Shown here: piece by piece, positions 15,001-18,000 of the stretch
Layout of the letters: each line of letters starts with the position of its first letter
Numbering within the stretch: the first letter of the stretch is position 1
Assembly: GCF_050320075.1 (NCBI RefSeq)
Contig: NZ_CP190019.1
Reading direction: 5' to 3' (one strand)
Length of the DNA stretch: 64,000 nt
Origin: Escherichia coli
Lineage (GTDB): Bacteria > Pseudomonadota > Gammaproteobacteria > Enterobacterales > Enterobacteriaceae
Position numbers: made by a program

Positions 15001-18000
15001 AAGGCCAAAGACAAGTTCGCTGGCACCTGCTGTATCGGTCATAATTTCGGTTGGATTCAGCCCGGTCTCCTGTTCCAGAAGACCTTCCAGCACAAAGATA
15101 GAGTCCCTCAGCGTCCCCGGTATAACGATGCCATGAAAGCCGGAATACTGATCGGACACAAAGTTGTACCAGGTGATCCCTCTGTTATTACCAAAGTATT
15201 TGCGGTTCGGTCCGGCATTGATTGTTCTGACTGGCGTAACAAAGCGCATTCCATCTGCAGATGCCACTTCTCCTCCACCCCATATCTGTGCCAGTGGCAG
15301 CGTTGCCTAAAAATCAACCAGTCTGGCATTAGCGCTGGTGATAGTTTCAGCCCGCAGATAGTTCGCTTTTGTCCAGTTCAGCCGGTGTCGGGTCAGTGCA
15401 GGAACATTTGATCTGATCAGTGGTTCCAGACCGATATTGCAGGCTTCAGCCATCAGCACGGCGCTGATGCTGACGGGCAGATCATCAACTCTGGCACTGG
15501 CTTCACTAGCATGGAAAAACTCATCAGCAAATCCGGTATGGGCGTTAATTTCGAGCAGCAACTCCGTTAAATCCACCGGAGGGAGTAGATCACTGATCAT
15601 TTTGCTCAGTCGTTTCGGCACTGTTGCAAATAGTCGGTGGTGATAAACTTATCATCCCCTTTTGCTGATGGAGCTGCACATGAACCCATTCAAAGGCCGG
15701 CATTTTCAGCGTGACATCATTCTGTGGGCCGTACGCTGGTACTGCAAATACGGCATCAGTTACCGTGAGCTGCAGGAGATGCTGGCTGAACGCGGAGTGA
15801 ATGTCGATCACTCCACGATTTACCGCTGGGTTCAGCGTTATGCGCCTGAAATGGAAAAACGGCTGCGCTGGTACTGGCGTAACCCTTCCGATCTTTGCCC
15901 GTGGCACATGGATGAAACCTACGTGAAGGTCAATGGCCGCTGGGCGTATCTGTACCGGGCCGTCGACAGCCGGGGCCGCACTGTCGATTTTTATCTCTCC
16001 TCCCGTCGTAACAGCAAAGCTGCATACCGGTTTCTGGGTAAAATCCTCAACAACGTGAAGAAGTGGCAGATCCCACGATCCTCAACACGGATAAAGCGCC
16101 CGCCTATGGTCGCGCGCTTGCTCTGCTCAAACGCGAAGGCCGGTGCCCGTCTGACGTTGAACACCGACAGATTAAGTACCGGAACAACGTGATTGAATGC
16201 GATCATGGCAAACTGAAACGGATAATCAACGCCACGCTGGGATTTAAATCCATGAAGACGGCTTACGCCACCATCAAAGGTATTGAGGTGATGCGTGCAC
16301 TACGCAAAGGCCAGGCCTCAGCATTTTATTATGGTGATCCCCTGGGCGAAATGCGCCTGGTAAGCAGAGTTTTTGAAATGTAAGGCCTTTGAATAAGACA
16401 AAAGGCTGCCTCATCGCTAACTTTGCAACAGTGCCGCCCCAGCAGCATCTCCAGCTGTGAACGCTGTTCGGCTGACGGTATCAGTGCCAGTTTGTTCCAC
16501 AGGCGCAACGTCGCCTTTTCCCTTACCTCTGAAATCAACCGGGTCAGCGTAGTGGCTCCGGGGAGAATAATAGTCTATCCCGGCATTGCCAGTCGGGGAT
16601 ATTAAAAAGAGTATAGGTTTTTATTGCGATAAACTAGGTTTCACTTTGGTTCACCATGAAGATGGATTCGCAGTTCTAATGTGTAATGAGGTTCGGATTC
16701 ATCTATGGGAGGCAAGTGATGAAGGCTGGCGCTCTCGTAGTAATGATTCACCGGTTTGTACAGGTGCGGAGTCGTTTATTGCTGGTACTGCTAGTTGCCG
16801 CATTGAAGTAGAGGGAATTGATGAATTATATCAACATATTAAGCCTTTGGGCATTTTGCACCCCAATACATCATTAAAAGATCAGTGGTGGGATGAACGA
16901 GACTTTGCAGTAATTGATCCCGACAACAATTTGATTAGCTTTTTTCAACAAATAAAAAGCTAAAATCTATTATTAATCTGTTCAGCAATCGGGCGCGATT
17001 GCTGAATAAAAGATACGAGAGACCTCTCTTGTATCTTTTTTATTTTGAGTGGTTTTGTCCGTTACACTAGAAAACCGAAAGACAATAAAAATTTTATTCT
17101 TGCTGAGTCTGGCTTTCGGTAAGCTAGACAAAACGGACAAAATAAAAATCTAAATATGCTTGAACAACTTGTAACTTAAATTCATAACTGTATTTTGCCA
17201 TAAAAAATGACCTCCCATAAGTTAGATTTTTGGTCTAACTTATGGGGGTCAGTTCATTCTACACTTGGGCTGCATGTTTTGATTAATTATCTAATATCTC
17301 CGGATCTCCTGTAAAGGAATATAAAACTGCCTGCATGTTTTTCAAATAAAATACGGTGAATTTCCCATCATCAGCGCTATACCAATCTCTCAAAGGCGGA
17401 TTTGCTTCAAGCATTGCTTCCCTTGCTTCCACGGTATCATCAATTACGGCTTCGCCGGTGAGCCGAATCCATTTTCCTTTTGCCATACCTGAGACTTCCA
17501 CCTTTGAATTTGCCAATAACTGCTGATAAACTTTTTTCTGATTGGTTGTACCAAGATAGACCTTGCCATTCCTCTCCATGGCTGCATTAAACGGTCTGAC
17601 CCTTGGCTGGTCTCCTTCAACGGTTGCAAAATAAAAAGTTTTTGCTTCATTTAAAAAATCAACAACTTGACTCATCCTTTTTTACCTCCATAAATAAATT
17701 TTTCTTTACTTTTCTTTGACCTAAATTCCACGTGCATTTTTTATTAGCTTAAAAGAACACTATTTCACGAAGAATTTAAACTGATACTCCCACATTGTAA
17801 CATTATTTACCACCACCTTTCAATCTTTTTCAATAAATTATTGATTGCAACTTTTGAGTAAAGATACTTATTAAACCCTGCAAGTTATCCACAGAGCAAC
17901 ACTCGATTTTCAAGATGATATCTTTATTATACCAGACATTTTTCATACACTTCCTTGGGCACTGTTGCAAAGTTAGCGATGAGGCAGCCTTTTGTCTTAT

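What the first reader, a model, noticed from the sequence alone, without database searches (positions are those of the whole stretch)
16436..17957. Low-GC, Gram-positive-type segment (ble plus an FMN-binding family gene and a long palindrome) trapped between IS26 copies
The bleomycin-binding protein matches the pUB110/staphylococcal type rather than the ble usually linked to blaNDM, and the segment's GC content is far below its surroundings. An imperfect palindrome of about 100 bp at 17030-17150 (ttttgtccgtt ... aacggacaaaa) resembles a single-strand origin or terminator. This suggests IS6-family capture from a Gram-positive plasmid.
Basis: partly seen in the sequence, partly recalled or inferred. 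Interest (0 to 1): 0.35.

Follow-up and report, generated by a model that had tools for sequence, protein, structure and literature searches.

The report
Known Gram-positive DNA relic beside oqxAB
This is the already described "ΔTn2-IS26-ble-orf-ΔISEnca1-IS26" block that sits next to the oqxAB resistance transposon in hundreds of livestock-associated E. coli, Salmonella and Klebsiella plasmids: a patchwork of leftovers from Gram-positive mobile elements, real but ordinary.

Summary
Between two IS26 copies (15617-16435, 17958-18777) lies low-GC DNA carrying a pUB110-type ble, a PNPOx/FMN-family gene and a strongly folding 90-nt hairpin.

It is not one captured piece but a four-part mosaic:
- 16436-16571: 56.6% GC fragment of Tn2/Tn3 tnpA, not Gram-positive DNA.
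- 16572-17149: 100% identical to staphylococcal pUB110-type plasmids. It holds ble without its start codon and RBS, the ble terminator, and less than half of the region where the pUB110/pMV158 single-strand origin (palU/ssoU) lies.
- 17150-17256: left end of an IS3-family element.
- 17283-17957: PNPOx ("nimC", "orf63") gene 44 bp downstream of the right inverted repeat of ISEnca1, an ISEcp1 relative, which IS26 cuts.

The block is 100% identical to pOLA52. It occurs in at least 385 PLSDB plasmids and 146 of 5426 complete E. coli genomes, and it is named in the literature.

Gram-positive ancestry is supported. Entry by IS26 capture is not: the left junction joins Tn2 directly to pUB110 DNA with no IS.

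The one mildly new point is that ISEnca1 has independently captured two divergent PNPOx orthologues, whose homologues are usually HxlR-linked in Clostridia. This hints that the gene may be under selection.

The parts
15617..16435 (+). IS26, an 819-bp defective variant. Relative to the right-hand copy it has G459A, deletion of T463, A466C (a frameshift in tnp26) and GG613-614AA (G184N).
   Evidence: The same 81-mer occurs in at least 150 PLSDB records.
16436..16571 (-). Internal fragment of Tn2/Tn3 tnpA (encodes ...IILPGATTLTRLISEVREKATLRLWNKLALIPSAEQRSQLEMLLG). GC is 56.6%. This is not Gram-positive DNA.
   Evidence: 100% identity to 'Tn3-like element Tn3 family transposase' in more than 4000 plasmids. 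ORF. GC.
16572..17149 (+). pUB110-derived fragment (578 bp, 38.6% GC).
   Evidence: 100% identity to S. aureus NZ_CP029661 (L001 3001-3578), downstream of aadD1.
16574..16963 (+). 5'-truncated bleO (blmS). The native GTG/ATG start, the RBS and the promoter are replaced by Tn2 DNA, and in-frame TAA TAG stops lie directly upstream. The first usable start is TTG at 16586, which gives a 125-aa product lacking 9 N-terminal profile positions.
   Evidence: (profile positions 10-134 of 134).
17008..17039 (+). 14-bp stem hairpin followed by a T-run. It is probably the intrinsic terminator of ble. A perfect 11-bp hairpin lies just before it at 16981-17006.
17053..17142 (+). It is the first large stem-loop of the pUB110/pMV158 module that holds palU/ssoU. 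The next stem-loop starts at about 17144 and is cut off at 17149.
   Evidence: Bases 16991-17149 are 100% identical in Enterococcus tet(L)-mobV plasmids and in Actinobacillus p9555. Origin position and size come from the literature.
17150..17256 (-). Left end of an IS3-family element: IRL TGAACTGACCCCCATAAG..., a hairpin at 17214-17246 covering the Shine-Dalgarno sequence, and the first 53 nt of orfA (MAKYSYEFKLQVVQAYL). It is truncated at 17150.
   Evidence: The ORF continues in Lactococcus plasmid L006 and matches HTH_28 and HTH_Tnp_1. There is 76-83% identity to Enterococcus copies, one of them annotated as ISEfa10 family.
17283..17675 (-). PNPOx-family gene ('orf63', 'nimC', WP_000084745; 130 aa), with a GGAGG Shine-Dalgarno sequence in the 44-nt spacer 17676-17719.
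17720..17957 (-). 3' end of ISEnca1 (IS1380 family) ending in the IRR ACGTGGAATTTAGG, cut by IS26. It contains an outward promoter-like site, TTGAAA-18-TACAAT with TG, at 17823-17794.
   Evidence: 87% identity to ISEcp1; 100% identity to annotated ISEnca1, with divergence exactly at 17720.
17958..18777 (-). IS26, intact (820 bp). It is also the left arm of Tn6010 (oqxA starts at 19034; the next IS26 in the same orientation is at 23984-24803).

Best explanation
The interval is the known pOLA52-type block ΔTn2-IS26-Δble-orf-ΔISEnca1-IS26, which travels next to the oqxAB transposon Tn6010. It is a mosaic of relics.

Composition:
- A Tn2 tnpA fragment (16436-16571).
- A 578-bp slice of pUB110 (16572-17149): ble without its start signals, the ble terminator, and less than half of the palU/ssoU region.
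- The first 107 bp of an IS3-family element (17150-17256).
- A PNPOx gene that is the downstream cargo of ISEnca1, an ISEcp1-like IS1380-family element (17283-17957).

How it works, shown: all four boundaries are defined at base resolution. IS26 truncates ISEnca1 on the right. On the left, IS26 is associated with a deletion of about 1.2 kb of Tn2.

How it works, inferred:
- ISEnca1 inserted upstream of a normally HxlR-linked chromosomal PNPOx gene in a low-GC Firmicute, supplied an outward promoter, and mobilised the gene onto Gram-positive plasmids.
- Illegitimate joins then linked that unit to pUB110 DNA and to Tn2.
- Since then the block has been carried passively. It spreads with Tn6010 by IS26-mediated cointegration and recombination, and by plasmid transfer.
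- The hairpin is a non-functional remnant of a rolling-circle lagging-strand origin.
- ble is probably silent or crippled.
- The PNPOx gene is probably expressed, but has no demonstrated phenotype.
For: - Identity to pOLA52 is 100% over 16301-18100.
- At least 385 PLSDB plasmids and 146 of 5426 E. coli genomes carry 80% or more of the block at about 100% identity.
- The literature names the structure.
- Piece identities are shown (Tn2; pUB110; IS3 family; ISEnca1 boundary exactly at the IRR).
- The ISEnca1-PNPOx-IS3 unit occurs without ble, and with 104 bp more of ISEnca1, in Lactococcus and Enterococcus plasmids bounded by ISEnfa1 or IS1216.
- The hairpin module lies between tet(L) or ble and oriT-mobV. 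pMV158 ssoU is placed between tetL and oriT. The pUB110 sso is 340 nt, whereas only 159 nt of the shared module survive here, and the next stem-loop is cut.
- A promoter-like site in ΔISEnca1 points at the PNPOx gene.
- The flanking IS26 copies are inverted and lack a target duplication.
Against: - The exact palU/ssoU coordinates could not be read from any accessible paper. Placing the hairpin inside the origin rests on position and size arguments.
- The order of the joining events is not observable.
- The pUB110|IS3 junction was not found in any Gram-positive record, so where that join arose is unknown.
- Nothing here measures expression of ble or of the PNPOx gene.
Confidence: 0.85

Rival explanations
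1. One reading: IS26, or another IS6-family element, captured one contiguous piece of a Gram-positive plasmid and moved it into an enterobacterial plasmid as an IS-bounded unit.
For: The block is bounded by IS26. In Enterococcus and Lactococcus the PNPOx unit is likewise bounded by IS6-family elements, IS1216 and ISEnfa1.
Against: - The left IS26 abuts 136 bp of Tn2 tnpA, and the Tn2|pUB110 junction has no IS.
- The IS26 copies are inverted, so the block is not a translocatable unit, and the outer 8-bp flanks differ (GTCGTTTC versus AGTTTTAT).
- The Gram-positive DNA is three unrelated pieces.
- The IS6-family boundaries in Gram-positive plasmids are at different positions: 17166, and 104 bp beyond 17957.
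Confidence: 0.1
2. The whole low-GC block (ISEnca1 + PNPOx + ΔIS3 + the pUB110 slice up to 16572) entered Tn2 tnpA in one step, as an ISEcp1-style one-ended transposition unit of ISEnca1 that ended at a surrogate right end near 16572.
For: - The orientation fits: the cargo lies downstream of the IRR, and the far end abuts target DNA (Tn2) without any other IS.
- ISEnca1 carries different cargos behind the same IRR in other plasmids.
- Complete or nearly complete ISEnca1 copies exist in Enterobacterales.
Against: - The 14 nt at the distal end match the IRR at only 5 of 14 positions, which is near chance.
- IRL and the second target duplication are lost to IS26, so the 5-bp duplication cannot be checked.
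- The required precursor junction (pUB110|IS3 at 17149/17150) was not found outside this block.
Confidence: 0.2
3. The palindrome is not an origin remnant. It is a transcription terminator for ble, or the inverted ends of a miniature mobile element.
For: It lies downstream of ble. It has perfect 11-nt terminal arms.
Against: - The canonical terminator (a 14-bp stem plus T-run) is the preceding hairpin at 17008-17039.
- The long hairpin has no T-run on either strand.
- It sits at one fixed position, within the 159 bp that are 100% identical downstream of both ble and tet(L) in rolling-circle plasmids, rather than being dispersed like a MITE.
- There are no flanking direct repeats.
Confidence: 0.1

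Closest known systems
pOLA52 (NC_010378) block upstream of Tn6010: ΔTn2-IS26-blmS/ble-orf63('nimC')-ΔISEnca1-IS26
   Same: 100% nucleotide identity over 16301-18100, with the same junctions and the same neighbour, oqxAB. It is described as a 3678-3680-bp structure in PMC5645526 and PMC7823714.
   Different: Here the left IS26 is the 819-bp frameshifted G184N-type variant, whereas pOLA52 has an intact copy annotated.
pUB110 aadD-ble-palU(ssoU)-oriT-mob region
   Same: 16572-17149 is identical to the ble-to-first-stem-loop part.
   Different: aadD, the ble start and RBS, the remaining stem-loops of the origin region, oriT and mob are all absent.
ISEcp1-blaCTX-M transposition units (IS1380 family)
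   Same: The same terminal IRR (ACGTGGAATTTAGG). The 238-bp ISEnca1 3' remnant is 87% identical to ISEcp1. The cargo gene lies tens of bp downstream in the same orientation. The outward site is TTGAAA/TACAAT; that these hexamers match those reported for ISEcp1 is my own recollection.
   Different: The IS is ISEnca1. The cargo is a PNPOx-family gene with no known phenotype. The IS is reduced to 238 bp, so this copy can no longer transpose.
ISEnca1-PNPOx unit in Gram-positive plasmids (E. faecium pE211-2, Lactococcus sp. LG1267 plasmid)
   Same: 99.9-100% identity over 17148/17166-17957.
   Different: There ΔISEnca1 is 104 bp longer, the unit is bounded by ISEnfa1 or IS1216, the IS3-family element is longer or cut elsewhere, and there is no pUB110 or Tn2 DNA.

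Membership tests
bleO (pUB110-type bleomycin-binding protein) | Scores above the curated NCBIfam NF000027 cut-off. | tested here: met
   297.9 bits against a cut-off of 275.
bleO (pUB110-type bleomycin-binding protein) | Complete coding sequence with its native start codon and RBS. | tested here: not met
   Only profile positions 10-134 of 134 are covered. The native GTG/ATG start and Shine-Dalgarno sequence seen in L001 are replaced by Tn2 DNA, with TAA TAG in frame.
palU/ssoU single-strand origin of pUB110/pMV158 | Located in the conserved module between the resistance gene (ble or tetL) and oriT-mob. | tested here: met
   16991-17149 is 100% identical to that module in pUB110-type and tet(L)-mobV plasmids. 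The position of ssoU is given in PMC5737340.
palU/ssoU single-strand origin of pUB110/pMV158 | Extensive secondary structure of the single strand. | tested here: met
   -42.5 kcal/mol, z = -8.9.
palU/ssoU single-strand origin of pUB110/pMV158 | Full-length origin (about 340 nt in pUB110). | tested here: not met
   At most 159 nt are retained. The second large stem-loop is cut at 17149.
palU/ssoU single-strand origin of pUB110/pMV158 | RNA-polymerase-dependent priming and conversion of ssDNA to dsDNA. | not testable with these tools
   Needs an ssDNA-accumulation assay in Firmicutes.
ISEcp1-like (IS1380 family) transposition unit | Cargo directly downstream of the IRR, in the same orientation. 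| tested here: met
   The IRR ends at 17720 and the ATG is at 17675. Homology to ISEnca1 copies carrying other cargo stops exactly at the IRR.
ISEcp1-like (IS1380 family) transposition unit | Intact transposase and IRL. | tested here: not met
   Only 238 bp of the 3' end remain.
ISEcp1-like (IS1380 family) transposition unit | Surrogate right end and 5-bp target duplication. | tested here: inconclusive
   5 of 14 matches to the IRR at 16572. The IRL side has been lost.
IS26 translocatable unit / compound transposon | Flanking IS26 copies in direct orientation (translocatable unit), or a matching 8-bp target duplication (transposon). | tested here: not met
   The copies are inverted. The flanks are GTCGTTTC and AGTTTTAT.
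Nim 5-nitroimidazole reductases | PNPOx-type FMN-binding split-barrel domain. | tested here: met
   Pfam PNPOx_N E 1.7e-9. PDB 2ig6 'NimC/NimA family protein' E 3e-36.
Nim 5-nitroimidazole reductases | Detectable sequence relationship to a functionally characterised Nim protein. | tested here: inconclusive
   The PDB search at E <= 0.01 returned only the uncharacterised structural-genomics entry 2ig6. PF12900 scores 20.7, below its cut-off of 27. No NCBIfam family passes its cut-off.
Nim 5-nitroimidazole reductases | Confers nitroimidazole resistance. | not testable with these tools
   Needs MIC assays.

The most novel reading that the evidence does not exclude
The PNPOx gene may be a selected determinant rather than a passive hitch-hiker.

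ISEnca1 has landed independently in front of two divergent orthologues (67% amino-acid and 73% nucleotide identity). The insertion points differ: 44 nt versus 57 nt from the ATG, one of them inside the native -10 box. In three of four IS-free contexts examined, including that of the second captured allele, the gene sits beside a divergent HxlR-type regulator in Clostridia-like genomes. (The donor of the window allele was not found.) Both captured units now sit on livestock-associated plasmids.

By analogy with the repeated ISEcp1 captures of blaCTX-M, this would point to constitutive expression of a flavin-dependent enzyme that protects against a reductively activated or electrophilic veterinary compound. 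Candidates are nitroimidazoles, nitrofurans, or quinoxaline-di-N-oxides such as olaquindox.
Probability: 0.2. Interest if true: 0.55.

Novelty: already known. Interest (0 to 1): 0.15.

Why it matters
Little changes. The block is a well-documented passenger next to Tn6010, useful mainly as an epidemiological marker of pOLA52-derived oqxAB regions and as a clear example of Gram-positive DNA fixed in enterobacterial plasmids.

Three practical points follow:
- The 'bleO' calls that AMR pipelines make here refer to a gene without its start signals. They should not be read as bleomycin resistance.
- The 'nimC' label has no functional support.
- The repeated capture of PNPOx orthologues by ISEnca1 is a cheap, testable lead to a possibly overlooked resistance or detoxification gene.

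Tried and rejected
- Exact palU/ssoU coordinates. Five literature searches or look-ups gave only the origin's position relative to tetL and oriT and a length of 340 nt. The primary papers (Boe 1989, van der Lelie 1989, Kramer 1999, Lorenzo-Diaz 2009) are not held.
- Same truncation point of ISEnca1 in Gram-positive and Gram-negative hosts. BLAST ends suggested this. It was rejected after reading the sequences: the Gram-positive copies continue for 104 bp before ISEnfa1.
- Surrogate IRR at the Tn2|pUB110 junction. It matches at 5 of 14 positions, which is chance level.
- The pUB110|IS3 junction 37-mer in GTDB representative genomes and JGI metagenomes gave no hits. A PNPOx 36-mer in GTDB representatives also gave no hits, so the donor species was not identified.
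- Rfam scan of 16300-18100. The only result was a chance-level AfaR hit, E = 0.54.
- The small ORFs at 16982-17140 (-) and 16423-16605 (+) have no family matches. They are treated as non-genes.
- The hairpin at 17214-17246 was first read as the PNPOx terminator. It was reassigned to the IS3-family left end, where it covers the orfA Shine-Dalgarno sequence; it may still terminate PNPOx transcripts.
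Full report
**Observation**

The interval 16436-17957 lies between two IS26 copies, at 15617-16435 (transposase on +) and 17958-18777 (transposase on -).

It contains an ORF (16586-16963, +) that scores 297.9 bits on NCBIfam NF000027 bleO (cut-off 275) and only 28 bits on the BLMA family model.

It also contains an ORF (17283-17675, -) with a Pfam PNPOx_N domain, whose only solved relative is 2ig6, 'NimC/NimA family protein' (E 3e-36).

The arms ttttgtccgtt / aacggacaaaa are perfect 11-mers at 17053-17063 and 17132-17142 and close a 90-nt imperfect hairpin. 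Two shorter perfect or near-perfect hairpins precede it, at 16981-17006 and 17008-17039.

As single-stranded DNA, 16960-17160 folds at -42.5 kcal/mol against -15.9 +/- 3.0 for dinucleotide shuffles (z = -8.9). This is far beyond chance.

GC is 36.7% for 16572-17957, against 52% for IS26 and for the whole window.

**Anatomy**

The interval is a four-piece mosaic.

(a) 16436-16571(72) is 56.6% GC and 100% identical to Tn3/Tn2 tnpA in more than 4000 plasmids.
- On the minus strand it encodes ...IILPGATTLTRLISEVREK...EMLLG.
- The other side of the left IS26 (to the left of 15617) is a much later part of the same tnpA (ORFs).
- The 8-bp flanks differ, so IS26 is associated with a deletion of about 1.2 kb of tnpA rather than a simple insertion. 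The size is inferred from my recollection of the TnpA sequence.

(b) 16572-17149 is 100% identical to S. aureus plasmid NZ_CP029661, where aadD1 lies just upstream.
- Comparison with that sequence shows that the ble start (GTG AGA ATG TTA CAG...), its Shine-Dalgarno sequence and its promoter are missing here.
- Tn2 DNA supplies in-frame TAA TAG immediately before TCT ATC CCG.
- The first available start is a TTG without a Shine-Dalgarno sequence. It gives a product lacking nine N-terminal profile positions.

(c) 17150-17256 is the left end of an IS3-family element on the minus strand.
- It comprises the IRL TGAACTGACCCCC..., a hairpin covering the Shine-Dalgarno sequence, and 53 nt of orfA.
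- In a Lactococcus plasmid the same sequence continues into a 134-codon HTH_28/HTH_Tnp_1 ORF.
- Enterococcus copies are 76-83% identical, and one is annotated as ISEfa10 family.

(d) 17283-17675 (PNPOx gene), a 44-nt spacer carrying GGAGG, and 17720-17957.
- The last part is the 3' end of ISEnca1, ending in the IRR ACGTGGAATTTAGG.
- It is 100% identical to annotated ISEnca1 copies in E. coli plasmids that carry a different cargo (an MBL-fold/ODP hydrolase). Homology stops exactly at the IRR.
- It is 87% identical to ISEcp1.
- A TTGAAA-18-TACAAT site preceded by TG lies at 17823-17794 and points at the PNPOx gene. From memory, these are the hexamers reported for the ISEcp1 promoter that drives blaCTX-M.

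**The palindrome**

In native pUB110 the roughly 390-nt ble-to-oriT spacer folds into a chain of stem-loops (-88 kcal/mol, z = -9.7):
- a small hairpin;
- the terminator-like hairpin with a T-run;
- the 90-nt hairpin;
- a second large hairpin beginning at the position equivalent to 17144;
- further stems before the oriT inverted repeat and mob.

The 159 bp at 16991-17149 are 100% conserved downstream of tet(L) and upstream of mobV in many Enterococcus plasmids. Part of it (109 bp) is conserved in Actinobacillus p9555.

The literature places pMV158 ssoU between tetL and oriT (PMC5737340). It gives the pUB110 sso as 340 nt (PMC4595007 citing Boe 1989).

A 340-nt origin inside a spacer of about 390 nt must include the 90-nt hairpin. 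I therefore assign the hairpin to palU/ssoU (inference, about 0.75).

No more than 159 of 340 nt survive here, and the next stem-loop is cut. The most likely status is a dead remnant. I could not obtain the primary mapping papers.

**Relatives and prevalence**

- The whole interval, with identical junctions, is 100% identical to pOLA52. There it precedes oqxAB-oqxR/Tn6010 exactly as in this window.
- At least 385 PLSDB plasmids (Escherichia, Salmonella, Klebsiella, Shigella, Proteus and others) carry 80% or more of it at about 100% identity. So do 146 of 5426 complete E. coli genomes.
- Published descriptions call it ΔTn2-IS26-blmS/ble-orf63-ΔISEnca1-IS26 (3678-3680 bp), or 'nimC, blmS' upstream of Tn6010.
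- The finding is therefore already known.

**Origin and mechanism**

Gram-positive ancestry is supported for three pieces. They are separable:
- The ISEnca1-PNPOx-IS3 unit occurs without ble in E. faecium pE211-2 and in a Lactococcus plasmid.
- There it has 104 bp more of ISEnca1 and is bounded by ISEnfa1 or IS1216 at other positions.
- Staphylococcal matches stop at 17149.

The pUB110|IS3 junction was found only in the enterobacterial block. It was absent from GTDB representative genomes and from JGI metagenomes.

The Tn2|pUB110 junction has no IS. The flanking IS26 copies are inverted and have no target duplication. IS26 is thus seen trimming and later disseminating the block, not importing it.

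A one-step ISEnca1 one-ended transposition of the whole low-GC block into Tn2 is geometrically possible. It is unsupported, because the distal end matches the IRR at only 5 of 14 positions.

**The PNPOx gene**

The closest IS-free homologues are 67-75% identical at the amino-acid level. Named relatives are Clostridia (Konateibacter massiliensis, Clostridium perfringens; an [Eubacterium] eligens plasmid is more distant at 53%); the contigs themselves are low-GC (35-40%).

Three of four chromosomal contexts examined have a divergent HxlR-family regulator.

A second allele (P0021; 67% amino-acid and 73% nucleotide identity) also sits directly behind an almost identical ISEnca1 3' end in E. coli IncF plasmids.
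- Its IRR is 57 nt from the ATG, against 44 nt here.
- Its IS-free native context shows that ISEnca1 landed inside the native -10 box.

Two independent captures of orthologues are reminiscent of ISEcp1 and blaCTX-M, and hint at selection. An AT-rich insertion preference is an equally simple explanation, and truncated copies of the gene are common. No functional Nim relationship could be shown.

**Verdict**

This is a real but ordinary and published feature. Its interpretation is right about Gram-positive ancestry, and probably right about the single-strand origin. It is wrong about a single IS6-family capture and about the left boundary.

Noticed in passing
window 15617-16435 and 29437-30255: Two of the nine IS26 copies are an 819-bp variant with a 1-bp deletion (a frameshift in tnp26, IS position 463), two nearby substitutions, and GG613-614AA (G184N). 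The identical 81-mer occurs in at least 150 PLSDB records, so this is a circulating defective variant and not a sequencing error.
   Followed up: partly
window 15617..63638: There are nine IS26 copies in 64 kb (starts 15617, 17958, 23984, 29437, 34383, 36243, 45216, 57216, 62819). None of the copies has matching 8-bp flanks. This is a heavily IS26-remodelled multiresistance region.
   Followed up: partly
window 14314-15616 and 16436-16571: The left IS26 separates two non-adjacent parts of Tn2 tnpA (about 1.2 kb is missing) with no target duplication. This indicates an IS26-associated adjacent deletion.
   Followed up: partly
L012/L013/L017 (E. coli IncF plasmids, e.g. CP032810) and L018 (Logan SRR15413223): A second, divergent PNPOx allele (67% amino-acid identity), together with a fragment of an amino-acid permease gene, is carried behind ISEnca1 in E. 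coli plasmids. Its IS-free donor context (hxlR - PNPOx - permease) is visible in a metagenome contig.
   Followed up: yes
L008-L011 (e.g. NZ_CP037911 127-137 kb): Nearly complete ISEnca1 copies carrying an MBL-fold/ODP-family hydrolase as downstream cargo sit next to IS26 and qnrS1 in E. coli, Klebsiella and Enterobacter plasmids from swine, chickens and pets. The function of this cargo is unknown.
   Followed up: partly
window 16991 (loop of hairpin 16981-17006): The breakpoint between pUB110-specific DNA and the module shared with tet(L) plasmids falls in the loop of the first hairpin after ble. The Gram-negative Actinobacillus plasmid p9555 retains 109 bp of the same module after tet(L).
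   Followed up: no
window 17214-17246 (minus strand): A perfect 13-bp hairpin in the IS3-family left end pairs with the GGGAGG Shine-Dalgarno sequence of orfA. This is the kind of structure thought to block translation from read-through transcripts. It is followed by a T-run, so it may also terminate PNPOx transcription.
   Followed up: no
window ~6790-10611 (minus strand, 1273-aa ORF) and neighbours: Annotated matches to 9000-24000 list an 'anti-phage transmembrane ATPase' and a '3'-5' exonuclease' just upstream of the Tn2/IS26 region. This may be a plasmid-borne defence locus.
   Followed up: no
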